From the IMG/VR virus record IMGVR_UViG_2546826724_000006, positions 23,029 to 87,028 of that record: DNA of 64,000 bases; one strand, written 5' to 3'. The notes below the pieces were generated by a model, which worked only from the letters and a program-made list of their open reading frames with translations, ran no database searches and was not told the DNA's origin. Shown in pieces: positions 1,504-9,572 of the stretch (within the stretch, counting starts at the first letter, position 1; each line of letters begins with the position of its first letter). A program made the position numbers and the translations under genes. The stretch comes from a virus. Its lineage: Duplodnaviria; Caudoviricetes.

Positions 1504-2133
1504 CCCGTGGACTTCGACGATCTCTCCGACGTTCACCTGGACCGTGATCCCGACGACCTCCTCCCCGAGGACTGGGACGACGACACAACCGGAGAGATCG
1601 AGCTGGCCGGCATTCGGCGCCGGGTGATGGCTGAGACTGAAGGGCGGGTGTGATGGGCTGTGCGGTCACCGGAAGCGTCACCATCCACGGCCTCGGCGGT
1701 GCGACTTGGGAATTGCCCGTTGGGGTGCTTCAGGAGGTCATCACGGTCGAGAAGGTCGTCGGCAGCGTCCGCACGATCTACCGCGGCTCCATCGGCTCGC
1801 TGATTGCCCTCGGTGTGCTGACCCCGCCGGAAGTCTGACTTGGGCGACTGGCTGAATGAGCGTCCCGCTCTCTCCGGCTTCGCCATCGGCCTCACGTCGG
1901 CCGCCACTGGCCTGATTGCGATGGCCCTTCTGTGGATCTGATCTTCACCGCCGACTGGGTCTCCGGCTTTGCCTCGGGCGTGCTGCTAAGCAGCGTCATC
2001 GCCTGCTGCCTCGCGATGAGGGCTAGCCGCTGATGCCGGATCCGAAGGCTGTCCTGACCTGGCTGATGCTGCCGAGCCTGTTTGCCGCCGGCTGGATCTG
2101 CGCAGGCTTTGACCTGATGACGGGAGCGCGGAC

Positions 2134-2289
2134 ATGAGCCTCGTCACGATCCTCCTCATCATCCTGATCATCCTCGCCTTTGGTGGTGGCGGCTTCATCG
2201 GCGATGGCGCTTACCGTGGCCCTGGGTTCGGTCTCGGCGGGATCCTGCTGCTCGTGCTCATCGTCCTGTTGGTTTCCGGGAGGCTCTGA
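2134..2289 (+). CDS. Small two-TM membrane protein, DUF3309-like
   Basis: MSLVTILLIILIILAFGGGG...GFGLGGILLLVLIVLLVSGRL, read manually (not in ORF track); GGAG upstream. Confidence 0.7.
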   Translation: MSLVTILLIILIILAFGGGGFIGDGAYRGPGFGLGGILLLVLIVLLVSGRL

Positions 2290-2550
2290 TGCACCCGACC
2301 GACACGCTCCTCTCGCTGAGCCATGCTCGCATCGCCCGTGCTGCTGCCGCTGGCCCTCGCCGAGCCACACGGCCTACGCTGAACACCGATCGCCAGCATA
2401 TGGCCCGCATCGCTCAGGCTGATCCGTGGACAACCCGCCACAGCGTCGGCGCCGCCATCGTCCGCCTCAACACCCTCGCCCGTGCTGACGGCATCCTAGC
2501 CCAGCGCATCGACGCCTTGTAGGGCGGAATAAACAAACGGCAGAAATTCC

Positions 2551-2829
2551 ATGGGCGACAATCTCACTCGCCCCGGTCCTGGTCGCCCTAAGGGCTCAGT
2601 CAACAAGACGACGGCGCTTCTCAAGGATGCGATCCTTAAGGCCGCCGAGCAGGCTGGAGGCGGCGGGGAAGAGGGGCTGGTCAACTACCTGACCGCGCAG
2701 GCCTCCGAGAGCCCCGCGGCTTTCATGTCGCTTCTCGGCAAAGTGCTTCCGATGCAAGTCACCGGAGAGGACGGCGGCCCGGTCAGGGCGACTTTCTCGT
2801 TCAAGCTTGATCGGCCAGAGCAGTCGTGA
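2551..2829 (+). CDS. terS: Terminase small subunit (helper)
   Basis: GPGRPKGSVNKTT motif, ends FMSLLGKVLP; overlaps TerL start (GTGA). Confidence 0.75.
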   Translation: MGDNLTRPGPGRPKGSVNKTTALLKDAILKAAEQAGGGGEEGLVNYLTAQASESPAAFMSLLGKVLPMQVTGEDGGPVRATFSFKLDRPEQS

Positions 2830-4073
2830 ATTTCGAGTATGAGCGCCCTTGGCTGGCAGAGTACCAGCGAGAGGCGCTGTTCGGTGAGGAGCGGTACGGC
2901 GTCGTCGAGGGCTCGACGAAGTGCGGGAAGACGGCGCCCTGCCTGATCTGGCTCGCTGAGCAGTGCATGTTCGGCGGAGAAGGGCAGAACCACTGGTGGG
3001 TGGCGCCGGTCTACCCGCAGGCTGAGATCGCCTACAAGCGGATGAAGCGGGGCTTGCCCCACGACATCATCAAGACCCACGACACGGACAAGTGGATCGA
3101 ACTGCCGGGCGGCCGGCGCATGTGGTTCAAGACCGCCGAGAAGCCGAACAACCTGTATGGCGAGGACGTCTACAGCGCGGTGATCGACGAGGCCAGCCGC
3201 TGCCGCGAGGAGAGCTGGCACGCCGTCCGGTCGACACTGACGGCGACCCGTGGGCCGGTTCGGATCATCGGCAACGTCAAGGGCCGCAAGAACTGGGCGT
3301 TCGCCTTGGCTCGCAAAGCCGAGGCCGGCGCCCCTGGGATGGCCTACAAGCGGATCACGGCCTACGACGCGATCCAGGCCGGCATCCTCTCGCAGGCCGA
3401 GATTGACCAAGCCCGGTCGGATCTGCCCGAGGCGGTGTTTCGGGAGCTGTACCTCGCCGAGCCGTCCGATGATGGCGGCAACCCCTTCGGCATGAAGGCC
3501 ATCGCCGACTGTATCGGCCCGATGTCCGACGGCAAGCCGATCGCGTGGGGCTGGGATCTGGCGAAGTCGGTCGACTGGACGGTCGGCATCGCGCTGGACG
3601 CTGAAGGTCGCATCTGCCGGTTCGAGCGGTTCCAGAAGCCCTGGAACGATACGATGGATCGGATCGTCGAGGCGACCGGGTCCATTCCGGCCCTTGTTGA
3701 CAGCACGGGTGTCGGTGACCCGATCCTAGAGATGCTGCAGAAGCGCCCCGGCTCGCGGTTCGAAGGGTTCAAGTTCACCAGCGAGTCCAAGCAGCGGATT
3801 ATGGAAGGGTTGGCAGTCGCGATCCAGAAGATGGAGATCGCGATCCCCGAAGGCCCGATCCGGTCAGAGCTTGAAAACTTCGAGTACGAGTACACCCGCA
3901 CGGGTGTCCGCTACACGGCTCCGGATGGCTTCCACGACGACTGCGTGTGCGCGCTGGCGCTAGCGGTCAGTCACAAAGCCCATGCCCGGCAGCCCCTGAC
4001 GATCGACCCCGAGCTTCGCCGGCTCGCGAAGATGCCTCGGCGTGGAGGCTTCACGTTCAACCTCGGGACCTGA
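2826..4073 (+). CDS. terL: Terminase large subunit (helper)
   Basis: Walker A GSTKCGKT, Walker B VIDEAS, nuclease motifs WDLAKSVD and HDDCVCALAL. Confidence 0.95.
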   Translation: MNFEYERPWLAEYQREALFGEERYGVVEGSTKCGKTAPCLIWLAEQCMFGGEGQNHWWVAPVYPQAEIAYKRMKRGLPHDIIKTHDTDKWIELPGGRRMWFKTAEKPNNLYGEDVYSAVIDEASRCREESWHAVRSTLTATRGPVRIIGNVKGRKNWAFALARKAEAGAPGMAYKRITAYDAIQAGILSQAEIDQARSDLPEAVFRELYLAEPSDDGGNPFGMKAIADCIGPMSDGKPIAWGWDLAKSVDWTVGIALDAEGRICRFERFQKPWNDTMDRIVEATGSIPALVDSTGVGDPILEMLQKRPGSRFEGFKFTSESKQRIMEGLAVAIQKMEIAIPEGPIRSELENFEYEYTRTGVRYTAPDGFHDDCVCALALAVSHKAHARQPLTIDPELRRLAKMPRRGGFTFNLGT

Positions 4074-4075
4074 GT

Positions 4076-5707
4076 ATGACCCGAGCCCAGCGACGCAATC
4101 GAGCCAGGACCGCCGCGCAGGTAATTGGCACGGCGCAGGATACCACGCCCGAGGCCCGCAAGCCTCTCCAAATCGCGTTAGAGCTTCGTGGGCGGGCCAA
4201 GATCGGCAAGGGGCAGGGGAAGCCCGTCGATCCCTTCGCCGCCGCTCAGCATCCGCCTGGGACGACGGGTGGCTCCAATCTGGCGATGGATGAGGCGCCT
4301 GGCGTTGGGCCTTGGGCGTCGGAACTGCTCGGCGCCTACACCGGCACCTACGGCTATTTTCCCGGGTTCGCGCAGCTCGCCATTCAGGCGCAGATCCCTG
4401 AGATCCGCCGGATGGTGGAGATCATCGCGACGGAAGCCACGCGCAAGTGGATCAAGATCCAGGGTACGGGCCAGGACAAGGCTGATCAGATCAAGGCGAT
4501 TGAGGAGGCCTTCGTTGAGTTCGGGGTTCGCGACGTGTTTCGGAAGATGCTGGAATGCGACGGGTACTTCGGCCGAGGGCATATCTTCGTCGATACCGGA
4601 ACGACCGATCCGGACGAACTGAAGACCCCAATCGGCAGCGGATCCGATAAGGCCAGCCAAGCCAAGGTCGGCCGAGGCAAGCTGAAGGGGTTCAAGGTCG
4701 TCGAGGCGATGTGGGCGTACCCCAACGGGTACAACGCCACGGACCCTCTGGCTGATAATTGGTACAAGCCCACGACGTGGCTGGTGCAGGGCAAGCCGGT
4801 CCACCGGACGCGGCTGCTGACCTTCGTCGGCCGTGAAGTGCCCGACCTGCTGAAGCCGGCCTATAGCTTCGGTGGCGTGTCGCTCTCGCAGCTCGTGAAG
4901 CCCACGGTCGACAACTGGCTCCGTACCCGCCAGTCCGTGTCCGACATCGTGAACGCCTTCAGCGTCATGGTGCTGTCCACCCAGATGGGCAACACGCTCG
5001 GCGTGGCAGACACCAGTGTCGCGGATCGCGTCGAGCTGTTCAACGACCTCCGCGACAATCGCGGGGTCTGGCTCCTCAACAAGGAGACGGAGGACTTCAA
5101 GAACGTCTCGGCACCGCTCGGTGGCCTTGAGGCGCTTCAGGCTCAGTCTCAGGAGCACATGGCGGCGATCCCGGGCATCCCGCTCGTGAAGTTCTTCGGG
5201 CTTCAGCCGGCGGGGCTCAACGCTTCGTCGGACGGCGAGATGCGCTCGTTCTTCGACTGGATCGCCGCCTTCGTTGAGACCGGGCGCCCGATCATCCAGA
5301 GCATGCTCGGGTTCGTCCAGCTTCACCTGTTCGGTGAGGTCGACCCGGAAATCACCTTCGCGTTCGAGCCCCTTTGGTCCATGTCGGACAAGGAGCTTGC
5401 CGAGGTCCGGAAGATCGAGGCCGATACGGCTCTGGTCTACATTGACGCTGGCGTGCTCGACAAGGACGAGGAGCGCAAGCGGCTCGCGGATGATCCAGAG
5501 TCCACCTACCACGGTCTGGACCTGAACGCGGTCGTTGAGGAGCCGGAAGGCGAGGGTGACCTTGCCGACGTGGACGAAGGCGACGATGATGCCGGCTCGG
5601 CGGTCATGAGCCTCTTCGACCGCGCATCCGAGCAGCAGCATGATCGATCTGAGCCTGGGCGAGATGCTGGAACTCGCCCGCGAGGCCGAGCTTCAGAAGC
5701 GGCTTGA
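4076..5707 (+). CDS. Portal protein, DUF1073-type
   Basis: Follows TerL; motifs EATRKWI, IPLVKFFGLQPAGLNASSDGE, FEPLW; acidic tail. Confidence 0.9.
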   Translation: MTRAQRRNRARTAAQVIGTAQDTTPEARKPLQIALELRGRAKIGKGQGKPVDPFAAAQHPPGTTGGSNLAMDEAPGVGPWASELLGAYTGTYGYFPGFAQLAIQAQIPEIRRMVEIIATEATRKWIKIQGTGQDKADQIKAIEEAFVEFGVRDVFRKMLECDGYFGRGHIFVDTGTTDPDELKTPIGSGSDKASQAKVGRGKLKGFKVVEAMWAYPNGYNATDPLADNWYKPTTWLVQGKPVHRTRLLTFVGREVPDLLKPAYSFGGVSLSQLVKPTVDNWLRTRQSVSDIVNAFSVMVLSTQMGNTLGVADTSVADRVELFNDLRDNRGVWLLNKETEDFKNVSAPLGGLEALQAQSQEHMAAIPGIPLVKFFGLQPAGLNASSDGEMRSFFDWIAAFVETGRPIIQSMLGFVQLHLFGEVDPEITFAFEPLWSMSDKELAEVRKIEADTALVYIDAGVLDKDEERKRLADDPESTYHGLDLNAVVEEPEGEGDLADVDEGDDDAGSAVMSLFDRASEQQHDRSEPGRDAGTRPRGRASEAA

Positions 5708-5763
5708 GGCTGACGGCATAGCCCCGGTGGAGGGCAAGCCCGTCACAATGCCCGAGGATTTGC

Positions 5764-7512
5764 GTGGCAAGCTCGGTGAGGCCATTGAAGGGGAGCGGGG
5801 CGGTACTGCGCCCGATCCATCCCAGCGCCGGCCTTGAGGCCGCTTATCGCAAGCGGCTGACGGCAGCGCTGGAGGAGATGCACCGATCCATCATGTGGTG
5901 GATCAAGGCGGCTTATCGGTCGAACACGCCGCATCTGGCACAAGACGAGACGCCGGCCGAGACCCTGCGCAAGGCCATCCGCAAATTGACCCGGCGCTGG
6001 ACCTCGCGCTTCAACGTGCTGGCGGACGACCTCGCCTCGTACTTCGCCCAGGCGGTAAACGAGCGCTCAGATGCAGCGCTGAAGACGGCGCTCAAGAAGG
6101 GCGGCTTCACGGTAGAGTGGACGATGACCCGCGCCCAGCGCGACGTCGTCGGCTCGGTGGTCAACGAGAACGTCGCGCTCATCAAGAGCATCCCGCAGCG
6201 CTACCTCCAGGGTGTGGAAGGTGCTGTCATGCGGTCCGTGCAGACGGGTCGCGATCTCGGGCAACTGACCAAGGATCTGCAGGAGCAGTTCGGCGTCACG
6301 AAACGGCGAGCGGCCCTGATTTCGAGAGACCAAAATAACAAGGCGACAGCGGCGCTGACGAGAGCACGCCAGTTGGAGATTGGGGTCGAGGAGGCCGTAT
6401 GGCTGCACTCGCATGCCGGACGTTCCCCGCGCAAAGCCCATCAGGCGATGAACGGTAAGACCTACGACATTAAGAAGGGTATGTGGGACCCTGACGAAAA
6501 GGCTTACGTGCTGCCGGGGGAATTGATCAACTGCTTCCCCGGCGACACGCAGGTTGGCTTAAGCGGCAGCCCGGTTCGGGTTTGGCGTGCGCCGTTCGAA
6601 GGACCAATGGTCCACCTCGAAATCGGAGCCGATCTGCTCAAGGGTACACCTAATCACCCAGTACTCACCGCCCGTGGGTGGGTTGGCATAGGCGAGCTTA
6701 ATCGCGGCGATAAGGTCGTCTGCGTGGCGCTCCAAAACCGGAATGTGGTTCACAACAACGTAGACAAGCGAGTAGCCACATTCGCTGAGCTTTTCGAAGC
6801 GTGGTCGGCTCCATTTGGACATGTGAGCCGAGAGGGCACTGGTTTTAACTTCTACGGCGACAGGCCCAACGGCGACGTCGATGAGGTAATTGTCGGATAC
6901 GACAACCTGTTGCTCAACAGGCAGTCCCGCGGCCTTGAGGATCGCAGCGATCTCGCGCTCTCCGAAACCGATAGTGCGGTCGTCGGATTTGGTCTTAGCC
7001 GCGGTCTTCATGTTGGCTCTGCGGACTTCGCGAGCCTTGCTCACGATCAACGCCCGTCCCTCTGGACCGGCGGCGTCAAGCCGGATTTTGTTGGCATCGC
7101 TTCGGGCTCGCATGAGGCCGCGACGGTTCAGGACATCTCGGATGTTTGCGGCCGAGTGGCGGGGGAAGCCGAGCCTATCGGCAATGGCAGTAGTCCCAAG
7201 GCCGGACTCGTACAGCGGAATAATTTGGGGCGCCAAAGCCTCCCAGTCCATCCGTCTATCGGAGGCGACTCCGATCAAACGGAGCTTTTTTCCCAACTCG
7301 TCCGCAGTGCATCCGATAGCGGATGCCGCGTCTTTGAGTTTGGATCCACTCTCTACGAGTTCCGCCGCGTGACGGATAAGCGTGTCCGGGATTTTTCTGG
7401 ACATGTATTCACCATGCAAACGCTGAGTGGTTACTATAGCGTTGGCGGTGCATTTGTCCAGGCGAAAAACTGCCGGTGCGTATCGCGCGCCGTGGTCAAG
7501 GGCTTCGGCTGA
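5764..7512 (+). CDS. MuF/SPP1 gp7-like minor head protein, intein-containing (spliced about 269 aa)
   Basis: RAALISRDQNNK, WLHSHAG; conserved PGELIN-CRC motif split by a 313-aa insert. Confidence 0.9.
   Translation: MASSVRPLKGSGAVLRPIHPSAGLEAAYRKRLTAALEEMHRSIMWWIKAAYRSNTPHLAQDETPAETLRKAIRKLTRRWTSRFNVLADDLASYFAQAVNERSDAALKTALKKGGFTVEWTMTRAQRDVVGSVVNENVALIKSIPQRYLQGVEGAVMRSVQTGRDLGQLTKDLQEQFGVTKRRAALISRDQNNKATAALTRARQLEIGVEEAVWLHSHAGRSPRKAHQAMNGKTYDIKKGMWDPDEKAYVLPGELINCFPGDTQVGLSGSPVRVWRAPFEGPMVHLEIGADLLKGTPNHPVLTARGWVGIGELNRGDKVVCVALQNRNVVHNNVDKRVATFAELFEAWSAPFGHVSREGTGFNFYGDRPNGDVDEVIVGYDNLLLNRQSRGLEDRSDLALSETDSAVVGFGLSRGLHVGSADFASLAHDQRPSLWTGGVKPDFVGIASGSHEAATVQDISDVCGRVAGEAEPIGNGSSPKAGLVQRNNLGRQSLPVHPSIGGDSDQTELFSQLVRSASDSGCRVFEFGSTLYEFRRVTDKRVRDFSGHVFTMQTLSGYYSVGGAFVQAKNCRCVSRAVVKGFG
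6532..7470 (+). mobile_element. Intein (313 aa) in MuF
   Basis: Starts CFPGDTQV, block B TPNHPVLT, block F/G HVFTMQT..YYSVGG..AKN, followed by Cys+1 (CRC). Confidence 0.9.
6559..7404 (-). CDS. HTH + PD-(D/E)xK (DUF559-like) putative homing endonuclease, antisense inside the intein
   Basis: ATG 7404 with GGTGA RBS; two HTH-like segments; EREIAAIL..EQQ..YLIDVAV..VAVEVK..LSECGYSLVYV. Confidence 0.8.
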   Translation of the reverse strand: MSRKIPDTLIRHAAELVESGSKLKDAASAIGCTADELGKKLRLIGVASDRRMDWEALAPQIIPLYESGLGTTAIADRLGFPRHSAANIRDVLNRRGLMRARSDANKIRLDAAGPEGRALIVSKAREVRRANMKTAAKTKSDDRTIGFGEREIAAILKAAGLPVEQQVVVSDNYLIDVAVGPVAVEVKTSALSAHMSKWSRPRFEKLSECGYSLVYVVVNHIPVLERHADDLIAAIKLAYANPPTGGEYWVIRCTLEQIGSDFEVDHWSFERRTPNPNRAAA

Positions 7513-7546: not shown

Positions 7547-9007
7547 ATGCTTCTCTCTGCCGACACAAAAGTCCGGCTCGCGCTGGATCGCGCCGCCGTG
7601 CAGGAGTCCTTCCGAACGAAGGACAACGACGGCCACCTTCATATCTCGGCCACGCCGATCTCAAAAAGTAATGTGTGTCCGTATTTCGGGCGGGAGATCA
7701 TAAACTGGCGTGCGCTCGGCTTGGATGCCGACCGAGTTTACAAGCTCTATCGCGATCCCGAAGAGCTAGAGAAGGCCGCCAGCACCTTCTCCGGCAAGCC
7801 CCTGATGATGGGGCATTGGGAGAGTGACGCAGACAACCACGACCACCTCAACACAGTCGGTGGAACGCGGGATGTCTACTGGAAGGCGCCGTACCTGATG
7901 ACGGCGCTCGATGTCTGGCCTGGGCCAGCAATCGAAAAGATTGAAAGCGAAGAAGCCGCCGAGCTTTCTGCCGCTTACCGCTATCGAGCCGACATGACGC
8001 CGGGACGAACGCCTGATGGCGAGGTCTTCGACGGAGTTATGAGGGATATCGATGGATCCCACGTAGCATTCGTGCCGCGTGGCCGAGCAGGGCGTGATGT
8101 CCGAGCCTGGGATCAAGCCCCTATTACCTTCAAGGAGTTCATAATGAACACGGCCAAGTTGTCGCCGGCCGCTGCGCAGACCCGCGGCGCTCTGGCTGTC
8201 TACCTTCGTCCCAAGCTCGCCACTGACGCGGCTATCGACTTCGACCCCGCGCTCAAGGGCGTCACCGCCAAGAACTTCAAGGCTTCGATCCCGGCCATGG
8301 TGCTCGGGGTCATGAAGGCGACCAAGGGCAAGCTCGCCCAGGACGCCGACATTGAGGACGTCGCTGAGGTGATTGAGGCGCTGGCCGAGATCCTACCGCC
8401 GGAAGCTGAAGCCGACGTGAAGGCCGCGGTTGAAGGCGCAGAAGGTGGGGAGGTCAACGACGACGCTGATGCGGCTGAAGCCTGCATTGAGATGTGCCGG
8501 AAACTCAGCCCCGAGGACCGTGAAAAGGTCATCGCTGGGTGCCAAGCCATGGGCGGTGGTGAGCAGGCCCAGGACGAGAAGGACGACGAGAAGAAGGACA
8601 AGGCCATGGACGCTGCGATGGTGCAGGCTCGCATCCGCGAGGCGACCAAGAGCATGGTCTCCAAGACCGCCATGGACGCTGAGATCGCCCGCGCCCGTGC
8701 GGACGCCATCGCGGCCACCACCGCGCACATCAACGGCATCAACGAGGCCCGCCGTCGCGTCGCTCCGTGGGTCGGCGAACTCGCCATGGACTTCGACAGC
8801 ATCGAGGCCGTGGAGCGCAAGGCCTGCGACGTGCTCGGCATCGCCCACAAGGGCAAGCACCCCGACGCCCTGATGGACATCATCTCGGCTCGTCCGAAGG
8901 CCGGTGAGCGCTCCCGTGAGGCTGCGCCCCGCACTGCCATGGATGCCGCCGCTGCCAAGAGCTTCGACGAGCGCTTCGGCACTTCCCGCATCGGTCACGC
9001 CGCCTGA
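7547..9007 (+). CDS. Prohead protease/scaffold, DUF2213-type
   Basis: ISKSNVCPYFGREI, ELSAAYRY, HVAFVPRGRAG; Ala/Asp-rich scaffold half; internal AAGGAG..ATG at 8144. Confidence 0.9.
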   Translation: MLLSADTKVRLALDRAAVQESFRTKDNDGHLHISATPISKSNVCPYFGREIINWRALGLDADRVYKLYRDPEELEKAASTFSGKPLMMGHWESDADNHDHLNTVGGTRDVYWKAPYLMTALDVWPGPAIEKIESEEAAELSAAYRYRADMTPGRTPDGEVFDGVMRDIDGSHVAFVPRGRAGRDVRAWDQAPITFKEFIMNTAKLSPAAAQTRGALAVYLRPKLATDAAIDFDPALKGVTAKNFKASIPAMVLGVMKATKGKLAQDADIEDVAEVIEALAEILPPEAEADVKAAVEGAEGGEVNDDADAAEACIEMCRKLSPEDREKVIAGCQAMGGGEQAQDEKDDEKKDKAMDAAMVQARIREATKSMVSKTAMDAEIARARADAIAATTAHINGINEARRRVAPWVGELAMDFDSIEAVERKACDVLGIAHKGKHPDALMDIISARPKAGERSREAAPRTAMDAAAAKSFDERFGTSRIGHAA

Positions 9008-9034
9008 TCGGCGCTCTGAACAGGAGACGAGACC

Positions 9035-9547
9035 ATGAGCTTCCCCACGACTGTCAATTACGCACCGGCTCCTGCCGTTGAAGGCGACTTCTGCGACAGC
9101 AACCCGCGTTCGTCTGTCGACGCCGGCCCCATGGGTCTGGTCGTCGGCTCGGGCGGCGCTGTCATCGGCCGGTGGCACTGGGCGACTGCCCCGAACGACG
9201 GCGATGGCGCGCCTGCGTCCATCACCAACTCTGGCACGGGCGCTCCCACGGGCTTCATGCACCGTGAGCAGCAGGCGCTGATCACCACCTATCTCGCCGA
9301 GTCCGGCATGACGGTGCAGCCCGGCTTCCCGGCCACGCTCATGAAGAGCGGCGGTTTCTGGGTGAAGAACCGTGGCTCGGCGCCGACTGTCGTGAACCAG
9401 AAGGTGTTCGCCAACAACACTGATGGCAGCAGCTCGACTGGTGCCGCCGGAGCCACCGTCGCGGGCGCGACCGAAACCAAGTGGTACTGCCACTCGGTCG
9501 CCGCTGTCGGCGAACTGTTCAAGATGTCCGCGCTGCCCAACGGCTAA
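9035..9547 (+). CDS. Head decoration/cement protein
   Basis: Between scaffold and capsid; APAVEGDF..NPR, GFMHREQQALITTYL. Confidence 0.8.
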   Translation: MSFPTTVNYAPAPAVEGDFCDSNPRSSVDAGPMGLVVGSGGAVIGRWHWATAPNDGDGAPASITNSGTGAPTGFMHREQQALITTYLAESGMTVQPGFPATLMKSGGFWVKNRGSAPTVVNQKVFANNTDGSSSTGAAGATVAGATETKWYCHSVAAVGELFKMSALPNG

Positions 9548-9572
9548 GCGGCAGCATAGCGGAGATATCAAC

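What the first reader, a model, noticed from the sequence alone, without database searches (positions are those of the whole stretch)
6532..7470. Intein whose endonuclease is encoded on the antisense strand
Seen: the MuF intein has normal splicing blocks (C1, TxxH, terminal Asn, Cys+1), but its middle reads as non-protein-like sequence. The opposite strand (7404-6559, own RBS, codons in exact register) encodes a convincing 281-aa HTH-HTH-PD-(D/E)xK nuclease that even overlaps the N-terminal splicing blocks. Known: intein homing endonucleases are normally fused in frame (mostly LAGLIDADG, some HNH). Inference: an antisense homing gene hides in the intein, is expressed independently of the late gene, and keeps the sense frame stop-free so splicing still works.
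Basis: partly seen in the sequence, partly recalled or inferred. Interest (0 to 1): 0.9.

Follow-up and report, generated by a model that had tools for sequence, protein, structure and literature searches.

The report
MuF intein with antisense homing endonuclease
A self-splicing protein insert (intein) in this provirus's head-assembly gene carries its DNA-cutting mobility enzyme as a separate gene on the opposite strand, codon against codon; it is real and under selection, but a 2025 preprint already described this layout.

Summary
Window 6532-7470 (+) is a class-1 intein (Cys1, TPNH block B, terminal Asn, +1 Cys) in a MuF head-morphogenesis gene. Intein-less homologues join exactly at ...GELIN|CRC.

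The minus strand (7404-6559) encodes a 281-aa HTH-HTH-PD-(D/E)xK nuclease in the same codon register. In this 63% GC window a stop-free antisense frame is not significant (P about 0.12). Relatives decide the case:
- Both frames are open in register in 51 of 51 loci, down to 31% GC (per-locus P as low as 2.5e-12).
- In intein residues 61-285, antisense dN/dS is 0.10-0.35 and sense 0.46-1.5. In the extein this is reversed.
- AlphaFold gives pLDDT 90 for the antisense protein. The sense product is a Hint fold with a 123-residue disordered loop.
- Promoter-like site, SD-like site and start codon all lie inside the C-terminal splicing blocks.

Jerseyviruses show a precise 816-bp presence/absence polymorphism with divergent flanks, which supports homing.

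It is not new. Gosselin, Arsenault and Gogarten (bioRxiv 10.1101/2025.01.02.630785) report anti-sense VSR-like endonucleases in full inteins of actinophage minor capsid genes. This scan has also noted the layout on other DNA (231 notes). It is a new member of a known kind. Expression, splicing and cleavage remain untested.

The parts
5764..6531 (+). MuF (SPP1 gp7 / Mu F-like head morphogenesis) N-extein, 256 aa, ending ...PGELIN
   Evidence: PF04233 E 6e-10 and phrog_324 E 1.7e-74. 2595 homologues of 140-448 aa were found. Many are about 269 aa and intein-less.
6532..7470 (+). Class-1 intein, 313 aa: Cys1, block B TPNH (residues 39-42), block F ...GHVF (His291), terminal Asn313
   Evidence: Sequence read directly. 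The family profile A3 hits solved inteins: 2lwy 1.2e-9, 2jmz 1.2e-8, RecA mini-intein 4e-7. PF14890 matches 22 of 35 family members; the window's own insert scores only 13 bits, E 0.091. The AF2 model matches the Mtu RecA intein splicing domain with Foldseek probability 1.00. Intein-less alleles join at N|CRC.
6532..6711 (+). Intein residues 1-60: N-terminal splicing blocks under sense-strand selection. Residues 16-60 are constrained on both strands.
   Evidence: Concatenated NG86 omega: residues 1-15 sense 0.16 / antisense 0.69; residues 16-60 sense 0.33 / antisense 0.52. The d1/d3 ratio is 0.57 for residues 1-15 and about 1 for 16-60.
6901..7269 (+). Sense-frame residues 124-246: stop-free but disordered linker with no recognisable domain
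   Evidence: AF2 pLDDT 27-36. Sense omega 0.70 against antisense 0.27. No Pfam hit.
7387..7470 (+). Intein residues 286-313: C-terminal splicing blocks F/G, under sense-strand selection
   Evidence: Sense omega 0.26 against antisense 0.60. d1/d3 0.35-0.59. H291 and N313 are invariant in 35 of 35.
7471..7512 (+). MuF C-extein (13 aa, starting CRC) plus stop codon
   Evidence: The same CRC... tail follows Asn directly in intein-less homologues P0013, P0014 and P0016.
6559..7404 (-). Antisense gene for a 281-aa HTH-HTH-PD-(D/E)xK (Vsr-fold) nuclease, the candidate homing endonuclease. Its codons are in exact register with the intein frame.
   Evidence: ORF. 8 homologues at 51-61% identity were called as genes. 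1281 representatives of 50%-identity clusters score E<=1e-30. AF2 pLDDT 90.2. Foldseek top hit is 3r3p, the I-Bth0305I catalytic domain: probability 1.00, E 0.017. Antisense omega is 0.10-0.35.
6991..7404 (-). Antisense protein residues 1-138: two helix-turn-helix units and a long helix (DNA-binding part)
   Evidence: Pfam HTH_23 in 25 of 44 and HTH_7 in 20 of 44 family members. PDB profile hit 2lvs_A over residues 9-98, E 2.6e-6. AF2 helices.
6685..6969 (-). Antisense protein residues 146-240: nuclease core with E149, Q166, D176 and E185-x-K187
   Evidence: Q166, D176 and E185 are invariant and G146 and E149 nearly invariant in 44 sequences. K187 was read by eye in the shown rows, where some carry another residue. 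DUF559 and MTES_1575 each match 4 of 44. 3hrl_A E 0.003. 3r3p by fold.
7409..7413 (-). SD-like GGTGA, 4 nt upstream of the antisense ATG, inside the block-F codons
   Evidence: An SD-like word lies at -16..-5 in 31 of 41 unique loci, against 251 of 2050 control windows. GGAG/GAGG occurs in 19 of 41 against 96 of 2050.
7433..7460 (-). Sigma-70-like promoter match TGGACA-16-TATAGT (10 of 12), inside the block-G codons of the intein
   Evidence: 1 found, 0.4 +/- 0.7 expected. A match of at least 9 of 12 lies at the same distance in 18 of 40 loci, six of them perfect 12 of 12, against 31 of 800 control windows.

Best explanation
The MuF head-morphogenesis gene of this provirus is interrupted by a mobile class-1 intein. 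The intein's homing endonuclease is not fused in frame. It is a self-contained gene on the opposite strand, with its own promoter-like site, SD-like site, ATG, 281 codons and stop, and it lies wholly inside the intein in exact codon register.

Proposed mechanism:
1. The late MuF mRNA is translated straight through the insert. The sense product is a Hint splicing domain (residues about 1-123 and 247-313) joined by a disordered, stop-free loop of about 123 residues.
2. That domain excises itself and ligates ...GELIN to CRC..., giving the 269-aa MuF seen in intein-less relatives.
3. A separate antisense transcript gives an HTH-HTH-PD-(D/E)xK (Vsr-fold) nuclease.
4. This nuclease cuts intein-less MuF alleles of co-infecting or resident relatives. 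Repair then copies the whole cassette, with some flanking extein DNA, into the cut allele (homing).

The two frames stay open together because, in this register, a stop in one frame is a TTA/CTA/TCA Leu or Ser codon in the other. Synonymous codon choice avoids these.

Shown here: the anatomy, the exact insertion point, selection on the antisense frame, selection on the sense splicing blocks, conservation of the start and expression signals, the folds, and presence/absence polymorphism with divergent flanks in relatives.

Inferred: antisense transcription and translation, splicing, DNA cleavage and its target.
For: Anatomy and boundaries
-.
- Intein-less alleles of 269-281 aa join exactly at N|CRC (P0013, P0014, P0016). 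10 of 12 metagenome loci do the same.

Both frames open
- Both are open and in register in 51 of 51 loci, at 31-68% GC.
- TTA/CTA/TCA make up 0 of 43-49 Leu+Ser codons on either strand. In the exteins of the same phages they are 20 of 45 (L019) and 27 of 63 (L047).

Substitution pattern
- The pattern flips inside the intein. In the extein d3 >> d1. In intein residues 61-285 d1 > d3 > d2.
- NG86 omega for residues 61-285: antisense 0.10-0.35, sense 0.46-1.5. For the N-extein control: sense 0.03-0.37, antisense 0.84-3.1.
- Five non-overlapping pairs, concatenated, give the same picture.

Folds and domains
- AF2 antisense protein: pLDDT 90.2.
- Sense insert: 64.8 overall, with residues 124-246 below 50.
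- The sense profile hits solved inteins.
- The antisense profile hits HTH proteins and an endonuclease-like protein, and by fold the I-Bth0305I homing endonuclease core.
- E149, D176 and E185 are invariant or nearly so; K187 is common.

Expression signals
- Start codon ATG in 39 and GTG in 2 of 41 loci, all in one alignment column. SD-like site in 31 of 41.
- Positionally conserved promoter-like site in 18 of 40 loci, against 31 of 800 controls.

Mobility
- In Jerseyviruses, 58 records hold the full gene. Many 86-95% identical records (22 of the 40 rows shown) match about 50-56% of the query in two pieces, as expected for alleles lacking the insert.
- LP31 against ST1 and Jersey differs by a precise 816-bp indel. 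LP31/ST1 identity is 97-100% over 600 bp of N-extein but 67.5% in the last 77 bp before the insert.
- P0011 is 93-100% identical to the window's MuF over residues 1-180, then 70, 53 and 58% next to the insertion site.
- Antisense dS in the sense-disordered part is 1.6-17 fold (median about 3.5) lower than extein dS in the six closest pairs, fourfold or more in only two of them.

Prior description
- The same architecture is described in the Gosselin et al. 2025 preprint.
Against: - There is no direct evidence of antisense transcription, translation, splicing or cleavage.
- In the window alone the double openness is not significant (P 0.12; Fisher p 0.24).
- The window's own matches to curated models are weak. 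Intein_splicing scores 13 bits against a cut-off of 35.8. MTES_1575 has E 0.048. HTH_23 scores 21.7 against a cut-off of 24.6. PF14890 is not found in the record at E<=0.1.
- The nuclease fold match has a modest Foldseek E-value (0.017) and covers only about 98 residues. The VIA-align libraries that could have confirmed it were not available.
- The SD-like site of the window's clade is weak (GGTGA with 4-nt spacing). 22 of 40 loci have no promoter match of at least 9 of 12.
- The lower dS of the intein could partly reflect constraint on both strands rather than recent transfer.
- No near-identical intein-less DNA could be fetched for the window's own clade, so the mosaic with P0011 is seen only at the protein level.
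Confidence: 0.85

Rival explanations
1. The antisense nuclease gene is real and expressed but no longer, or never, acts as the intein's homing enzyme. It may serve the phage another way, for example by cutting competing phage or host DNA or acting as an HTH regulator. On this reading the intein is now inherited mainly vertically.
For: The preprint notes that most VSR-like cases looked vertically inherited. Only two clusters showed a transfer-like pattern. No cleavage data exist. In the window's clade both extein and intein are saturated (dS above 1), so recent transfer cannot be shown there.
Against: The gene is confined to the intein in 51 of 51 loci. Of the 148 newly listed proteins in the context-free library search, 132 carry the reverse-complement imprint of intein block B. 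The only copy in this 87-kb record is the one in the intein. Jerseyviruses show presence/absence polymorphism with divergent flanks. The insert sits at the same N|C site in phages of Actinobacteria, Enterobacteria, Pasteurellaceae and Vibrio.
Confidence: 0.1
2. The antisense ORF is a non-expressed mirror of a conserved sense protein. An in-register antisense frame of a GC-rich gene is often open, and it can give tblastn hits because the middle codon positions are shared.
For: At 63% GC the window has other long spurious antisense ORFs. Openness in the window alone has P 0.12. The conserved antisense motif YWVIRC is indeed only the mirror of sense block B.
Against: - The frame stays open at 31-43% GC, with per-locus P of 1e-9 to 2.5e-12.
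- Purifying selection acts on the antisense frame, not the sense frame, over residues 61-285.
- AF2 gives pLDDT 90 for the antisense protein and about 30 for the sense middle.
- The antisense frame has HTH and nuclease domain matches. The sense middle has none.
- ATG, SD-like and promoter-like sites are conserved.
Confidence: 0.03
3. The insert does not splice. MuF is made as a long fusion, or the head needs only the N-terminal 256 residues, and the sense frame is open for another reason.
For: The C-extein is only 13 residues. MuF proteins tolerate varied C-terminal additions: 800 aa in Aaphi23 and 1083 aa in Angelicage. No splicing assay exists.
Against: - C1, T39, H42, H291 and N313 are invariant in 35 of 35 inserts.
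- The +1 Cys is present in all 47 loci not cut by a contig end.
- Sense omega is 0.16-0.33 in residues 1-60 and 0.26 in residues 286-313.
- Intein-less relatives have exactly the ligated sequence.
- The sense frame is kept open even in AT-rich phages.
Confidence: 0.04

Closest known systems
Full inteins with an anti-sense VSR-like homing endonuclease in actinobacteriophages (Gosselin, Arsenault, Gogarten, bioRxiv 10.1101/2025.01.02.630785). I read the abstract, matched passages and section 15.
   Same: A contiguous intein; a separate ORF on the antisense strand inside it; a Vsr-like nuclease fold with extra helical N-terminal parts; an HHpred link to 3R3P; and a minor capsid host gene. The Gordonia phage records that my antisense query hit annotate the gene as 'MuF-like minor capsid protein'. 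In both cases the sense 'endonuclease region' has no recognisable structure.
   Different: This copy is in a 63% GC provirus.

The family reaches phages of Salmonella, Klebsiella, Edwardsiella, Aggregatibacter, Vibrio and Escherichia/Shigella, plus AT-rich metagenome viruses.

[quoted passage not shown] Here the ORF covers intein residues 10-291, including block B, and its start, SD-like and promoter-like sites lie in blocks F/G.

The parts of the preprint I read do not report per-strand dN/dS, the codon register, or the block-B mirror signature.
Inteins with an anti-sense LAGLIDADG endonuclease (Synechocystis DnaX, Chloroflexus SpoVR-like; Gorbalenya 1998 and Gogarten et al. 2002). I know these only as cited in the preprint's passages.
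   Same: The endonuclease gene is on the strand opposite a contiguous intein.
   Different: The nuclease family differs (LAGLIDADG against PD-(D/E)xK/Vsr fold), and so do the host genes. I did not read the primary papers.
'Fractured genes': split inteins with a free-standing Vsr-like or GIY-YIG endonuclease gene between the halves (Dassa et al. 2009, PMC2677866; passages read)
   Same: A free-standing endonuclease gene, some Vsr-like, sits inside an intein. It occurs mostly in phage, and short coding overlaps exist between the endonuclease and the intein parts.
   Different: [quoted passage not shown] Overlaps are only 6-69 bp. Here the gene is antisense, the sense frame stays continuous (cis-splicing), and the overlap is the whole 846-bp gene.
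I-Bth0305I, prototype of the EDxHD homing endonuclease family (Taylor et al. 2011, PMC3239194; passages read; PDB 3R3P)
   Same: It is the best structural match of the nuclease core (Foldseek probability 1.00, TM 0.64 over the target). It also has an N-terminal HTH-type DNA-binding region and a C-terminal Vsr-fold nuclease.
   Different: It is encoded in a group I intron in recA. Its composite EDxHD motif includes a catalytic His. The present family has no invariant His. Instead it has the classical E...D...ExK set, and by sequence it is nearer DUF559/MTES_1575.
Canonical bifunctional inteins with an in-frame LAGLIDADG or HNH domain (for example the PI-PkoII, PhoVMA and TliVMA structures among the hits)
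   Same: A Hint splicing domain with an endonuclease function placed between the N- and C-terminal splicing blocks. The element is mobile by homing.
   Different: The endonuclease is a domain of the same polypeptide. Here it is a separate protein read from the other strand.

Membership tests
Intein (Hint domain, class 1) | Nucleophile (Cys/Ser) at position 1 | tested here: met
   TGC at 6532-6534. C1 is invariant in 35 of 35 and present in 51 of 51 loci.
Intein (Hint domain, class 1) | Block B TxxH | tested here: met
   TPNH at residues 39-42. T39 and H42 are invariant. Sense-strand selection is seen there.
Intein (Hint domain, class 1) | Terminal Asn followed by Cys/Ser/Thr at +1 | tested here: met
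   AAC at 7468-7470, then TGC. N|C is present in all 47 loci not cut by a contig end.
Intein (Hint domain, class 1) | Hint fold, or a match to curated or solved inteins | tested here: met
   The family profile hits solved inteins at 1.2e-9 to 4e-7. Foldseek matches the RecA intein splicing domain with probability 1.00. PF14890 matches 22 of 35 relatives. The window's own insert scores only 13 bits against a cut-off of 35.8.
Intein (Hint domain, class 1) | Insert absent from homologues, which carry exactly the ligated extein sequence | tested here: met
   P0013, P0014 and P0016 read ...GELIN directly followed by CRC.... 10 of 12 metagenome loci are intein-less at N|CRC.
Intein (Hint domain, class 1) | Protein splicing activity | not testable with these tools
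   Needs an expression and splicing assay.
Homing endonuclease | Nuclease fold with catalytic residues conserved | tested here: met
   AF2 pLDDT 90. Top fold match is 3r3p. D176 and E185 are invariant and E149 nearly invariant; K187 is common in the shown rows of 44 sequences.
Homing endonuclease | Gene resides inside a self-splicing element | tested here: met
   CDS 6559-7404 lies inside intein 6532-7470. The same holds in 51 of 51 loci.
Homing endonuclease | Sporadic presence/absence at one site among close relatives, with flank co-conversion | tested here: met
   Jerseyviruses show an 816-bp precise indel. LP31/ST1 flank identity drops to 67.5% next to the site, against 97-100% further away. 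For the window's own clade there is only a protein-level mosaic (P0011).
Homing endonuclease | Cleaves the insert-less allele at or near the insertion site | not testable with these tools
   Needs purified protein and target DNA.
Anti-sense VSR-like HEN inteins (Gosselin et al. 2025) | Contiguous intein plus a separate antisense ORF with a Vsr-like nuclease fold | tested here: met
   compared with the preprint passages.
EDxHD homing endonuclease family (I-Bth0305I) | Composite EDxHD motif including a conserved catalytic His | tested here: not met
   No His is among the invariant or nearly invariant columns of 44 sequences. The conserved residues are E149, Q166, D176 and E185, with K187 common in the shown rows. 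The fold resemblance remains.
Fractured gene with split intein (Dassa et al. 2009) | Host gene broken into two genes with separate intein halves | tested here: not met
   The sense frame is continuous from 5764 to 7512, and likewise in all 51 loci.

The most novel reading that the evidence does not exclude
The two genes may be functionally interlocked, not merely overlapping. Three observations support this:

- The endonuclease gene's promoter-like -35/-10 boxes, its SD-like site and its ATG are written in the complements of the codons of splicing blocks F and G. The ATG is the complement of the invariant block-F His codon.
- Its last 110 or so codons are written across the N-terminal Hint subdomain.
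- At block B the antisense residues (W/R/G, V/M, I/V, C/S/G/R) are simply the reverse complements of synonymous Pro, His, Asn and Thr codons.

If so, selection on the phage for a spliceable MuF would also protect the selfish gene's expression signals and reading frame. Any frameshift or stop-creating deletion in the endonuclease gene would also destroy MuF. That would slow the usual decay of homing endonucleases. It could explain why the layout persists in more than a thousand 50%-identity clusters across phages of several bacterial phyla. It would be a natural case of long-lived, bidirectional double coding used as an 'addiction' device.
Probability: 0.3. Interest if true: 0.6.

Novelty: new member of a known kind. 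Interest (0 to 1): 0.3.

Why it matters
- **Annotation.** The antisense gene is unannotated in the four phage records I opened for it: Edwardsiella MSW-3, Aaphi23, Gordonia Angelicage and Salmonella LP31. There only the long 'head protein' is called. About 850 bp are read as junk-like protein, and a nuclease gene is missed.
- **Biology.** This is a clean, widespread natural example of two proteins read from opposite strands of the same codons. It has a measurable hand-over of selection from one strand to the other, and it supports the view that free-standing endonuclease genes colonise pre-existing inteins.
- **Tools.** The element offers a compact Hint domain that tolerates a 120-residue unstructured loop. 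It also offers a family of HTH-guided PD-(D/E)xK nucleases with a known natural target region, the conserved N|CRC site of MuF.
- **Limits.** The architecture itself was reported in 2025 and has been met many times in this scan, so this window adds a member and some detail, not a new kind of element.

Tried and rejected
- **Relatives of a virus record.** I used the search for related loci instead.
- **First related-loci search.** A single-protein search for related loci in viral contigs found nothing. The alignment-based search found 45 loci.
- **The look-up of encoding contigs.** DNA for P0002-P0011 could therefore not be fetched. The mosaic with P0011 and the odd 361-aa call P0010 stay at the protein level.
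- **Metagenome scan.** The scan with the N-extein gave no near-identical relative (best 64%). L060 (intein-plus) and L057-L059 (intein-minus), whose record names share one prefix, are only about 60% identical in DNA. That gave no clean co-conversion test.
- **Expression.** The look-up of sequencing runs and read laying were tried. Three contig runs (X2, X3, X5) hold the intein-bearing allele at 99% or more, with no joint that skips it. The one raw RNA run laid (X21) had 0 reads on the stretch, so this is no test of expression either way.
- **VIA-align.** Both libraries were absent from the machine.
- **Pfam intein model.** PF14890 does not detect the window's intein in the record at E<=0.1.
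- **Terminator-like hairpins.** Three were found on the + strand inside the intein, against 1.8 +/- 1.4 expected, which is not significant.
- **Literature.** Searches did not find an antisense-endonuclease intein report. Earlier scan notes gave the wording that found the preprint.
- **Considered and rejected.** I rejected the mirror-ORF artefact, a non-splicing insert and a split intein (see rivals and membership).


Full report
**What is at the coordinates**

The + strand ORF 5764-7512 (582 aa) is a MuF / SPP1 gp7-type head-morphogenesis protein. Pfam PF04233 covers residues 150-257 (E 6e-10) and phrog_324 scores E 1.7e-74.

After ...PGELIN the frame continues with Cys (TGC, 6532-6534). It runs 313 codons to ...VQAKN (AAC, 7468-7470) and is followed by Cys-Arg-Cys and ten more residues.

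The minus strand holds an ORF with ATG at 7404 and stop at 6561-6559 (281 aa). Its codon triplets coincide with those of the + frame. The record is an 87-kb IMG/VR provirus, 91% complete, and holds only this one copy of the antisense gene.

**Is it more than chance?**

Not in this window alone. At 63% GC the extein uses TTA/CTA/TCA in only 0.7% of codons, so a 303-codon antisense frame without stops has P of about 0.12 (Fisher p = 0.24). Other long antisense ORFs lie opposite the portal and scaffold genes. The case therefore rests on relatives.

**Relatives**

- A tblastn search with the antisense protein hit 92 phage records, all below 60% identity.
- In the four I opened, the hit lies antisense to the annotated head protein, and both strands are open: Edwardsiella MSW-3, Aaphi23, Gordonia Angelicage and Salmonella LP31.
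- An alignment-based scan gave 45 IMG/VR loci and one MAG contig.
- In 51 of 51 loci (50 plus the window; 44 distinct antisense translations; GC 31-68%) the antisense frame and the in-register sense frame are both open over the whole match.
- All 51 start the insert with Cys after the MuF motif. All 47 not cut by a contig end finish with Asn|Cys.
- From each phage's own extein codon use, the chance of no TTA/CTA/TCA over the overlap is 1e-9 (L019), 2.5e-12 (L047), 1e-8 (L041) and 5e-6 (Aaphi23).
- Both strands use 0 of 31-67 Leu+Ser codons of these three kinds. The exteins use 20 of 45 (L019) and 27 of 63 (L047).

**Which strand is under selection?**

Between related loci, extein differences fall mostly on sense codon position 3. 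Inside the intein they fall mostly on sense position 1, which is antisense position 3.

Along the intein the d1/d3 ratio changes as follows:

| Intein residues | d1/d3 |
|---|---|
| 1-15 | 0.57 |
| 16-60 | about 1 |
| 61-285 | 1.1-2.4 |
| 286-313 | 0.35-0.59 |

NG86 omega by pair:
- Residues 61-285: antisense 0.10-0.35, sense 0.46-1.5.
- N-extein control: sense 0.03-0.37, antisense 0.84-3.1.

Five non-overlapping pairs, concatenated, give sense/antisense omega of:

| Region | Sense | Antisense |
|---|---|---|
| N-extein | 0.16 | 1.07 |
| 1-15 | 0.16 | 0.69 |
| 16-60 | 0.33 | 0.52 |
| 61-123 | 0.75 | 0.30 |
| 124-246 | 0.70 | 0.27 |
| 247-285 | 0.66 | 0.36 |
| 286-313 | 0.26 | 0.60 |

So the sense frame is selected as protein only in the terminal splicing blocks. 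The antisense frame is selected in between. About 45 codons around block B are constrained on both strands.

**What the two products are**

*Sense product*
- The family profile hits solved inteins: a BIL domain (1.2e-9), the MJ0781 KlbA intein (1.2e-8, including a block-F stretch) and the RecA mini-intein (4e-7).
- PF14890 matches 22 of 35 inserts, and no other Pfam family matches any. The window's own insert scores only 13 bits.
- AlphaFold gives confident structure for residues 1-68, 80-123 and 247-313, and pLDDT 27-36 for residues 124-246.
- Foldseek's best hits are intein splicing domains, with probability 1.00.

*Antisense product*
- AlphaFold gives pLDDT 90.2 over 281 residues. The model has two HTH units, a long helix, an alpha/beta core and a C-terminal hairpin.
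- Pfam finds HTH_23 in 25 of 44, HTH_7 in 20 of 44, and DUF559 and MTES_1575 in 4 of 44 each.
- The PDB profile search finds a double-HTH protein (2.6e-6) and an 'endonuclease-like protein', 3hrl (0.003).
- Foldseek's top hit is 3r3p, the catalytic domain of the homing endonuclease I-Bth0305I: probability 1.00, E 0.017, TM 0.64 on the target.
- Q166, D176 and E185 are invariant, E149 is nearly invariant and K187 is common. Together they form a classical PD-(D/E)xK set.
- There is no conserved His, so the EDxHD motif of the I-Bth0305I family is not met.

**Expression signals**

- The start codon sits in one alignment column in all 41 distinct complete loci (39 ATG, 2 GTG). It is the complement of the invariant block-F His codon.
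- An SD-like word lies at -16..-5 in 31 of 41 loci, against 251 of 2050 control windows. GGAG/GAGG occurs in 19 of 41 against 96 of 2050. The window has the weaker GGTGA.
- The window has a minus-strand TGGACA-16-TATAGT match at 7460-7433, scoring 10 of 12 (1 found, 0.4 expected).
- A match of at least 9 of 12 lies at the same distance in 18 of 40 loci, six with the perfect consensus, against 31 of 800 control windows.
- All these signals lie inside the intein, so the cassette is self-contained.

**A mirror signature at block B**

A profile search of 1.84 billion cluster representatives found 31,789 proteins at E<=1e-3, 7,544 at E<=1e-10 and 1,281 at E<=1e-30.

Of the 148 newly listed proteins (150 rows, two met earlier), 132 carry [W/R/G][V/M][I/V]x[C/S/G/R] near the C-terminus. 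These chemically unlike alternatives are the reverse complements of synonymous codons:
- Pro: CCA, CCG/CCT, CCC.
- His: CAC, CAT.
- Asn/Asp.
- Thr: ACA, ACT, ACC, ACG.

At the one position the pattern leaves free, 114 of 132 are R/W/G, the mirror of Pro. So at block B the sense TxNHP motif is what is conserved. The signature also shows that nearly all library members of this family are intein-nested.

**Exact insertion point and mobility**

- Searching with the N-extein found 2595 homologues of 140-448 aa. Many are about 269 aa, which equals 256 + 13.
- P0013, P0014 and P0016 read ...GELIN followed directly by CRC....
- Of 12 metagenome loci, 10 are intein-less at N|CRC, one (L060) has the intein, and one differs.
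- P0011 is 93-100% identical to the window's MuF over residues 1-180, then 70, 53 and 58% in the last 90 residues, next to the insertion site.
- Among Jerseyviruses, 58 records hold at least 80% of the LP31 gene. Many 86-95% identical records (22 of the 40 rows shown) match about 50-56% in two pieces.
- LP31 against ST1 and Jersey differs by a precise 816-bp indel. LP31/ST1 identity is 97-100% over 600 bp of N-extein, but 67.5% in the 77 bp before the insert and 88-92% in the 200 bp after it. Intein-plus alleles share flank variants.
- Antisense dS in the sense-disordered part is 1.6-17 fold (median about 3.5) lower than extein dS in the six closest pairs, fourfold or more in two. This fits recent transfer, but double constraint may contribute.

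**Comparison with what is known**

My first five literature searches found nothing. Earlier notes of this scan (231 notes in at least 170 genomes) pointed to a preprint. I then found it and read its abstract, matched passages and section 15: Gosselin, Arsenault and Gogarten, bioRxiv 10.1101/2025.01.02.630785.

The preprint reports:
- 63 non-canonical inteins in PhagesDB, among them anti-sense VSR-like endonucleases in full inteins, with minor capsid proteins among the hosts;
- predicted structures in which the sense 'endonuclease region' is unstructured;

It cites Gorbalenya 1998 and Gogarten 2002 for anti-sense LAGLIDADG inteins.

Dassa et al. 2009 (passages) describe split inteins with a free-standing Vsr-like endonuclease gene between the two gene halves, in 'fractured' genes. 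The architecture is therefore known.

What this analysis adds:
- membership of a proteobacterial-type provirus, and a much wider host range;
- the per-strand selection map;
- the register and codon-avoidance logic;
- the overlap of the endonuclease gene and its signals with the splicing blocks (the preprint says such ORFs typically lie outside the splicing domain);
- the block-B mirror signature.

I could not see the preprint's supplements, which may already hold some of this.

**Verdict**

The feature is real. It is a new member of a known kind, with interest 0.3.

Expression, splicing and cleavage remain untested. An RNA run laid on the stretch held no reads, so it was no test.

Noticed in passing
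window 5764-6800 (protein P0010): A 361-aa gene call from another contig is 100% identical to the window's MuF through about 105 intein residues (...AELFE). It then ends in a different 16-residue tail. This could be a deletion or frameshift variant of the intein/endonuclease cassette, or an assembly artefact.
   Followed up: no
window 5764-6531 (protein P0011): An intein-less 269-aa MuF from other contigs is 93-100% identical over residues 1-180, but only 53-70% over the last 90 residues next to the insertion site. This looks like a recombination or co-conversion boundary.
   Followed up: partly
L004 / L064-L067 (Salmonella Jerseyviruses): There is a precise 816-bp intein presence/absence polymorphism among cultured phages that are 86-95% identical. 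Flank identity drops sharply next to the site. This makes a ready experimental system for homing.
   Followed up: yes
window 5073-5630: A 2255-nt contig of run X3 carries 65 differences from the window over 5073-6656. All 40 of the 72 listed differences that were shown lie before about 5630 (the portal gene's 3' end), and 32 were not shown. This suggests a mosaic boundary near the portal/MuF junction.
   Followed up: no
window 4178-5641 (-), 8200-8991 (-), 8393-9574 (-): Long antisense ORFs (487, 263 and 393 aa) lie opposite the portal and scaffold/protease genes. They are probably GC-driven and spurious, and they show that ORF length alone means little in this window.
   Followed up: no
L003 (Gordonia phage Angelicage) 2405-3352: My search finds a VSR-like antisense ORF inside the MuF intein of Angelicage, Affeca, Vivi2 and Fosterous. 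The preprint's text lists 'Angelicase, Affeca...' under endonuclease VII-like inteins. That may refer to a second intein in another gene. I could not check without the supplements.
   Followed up: no
L002 (Aaphi23) 1781-4183 and L003 974-4225: MuF proteins with this intein carry very different C-terminal exteins, from 13 aa in the window to several hundred residues in Aaphi23 and Angelicage.
   Followed up: no
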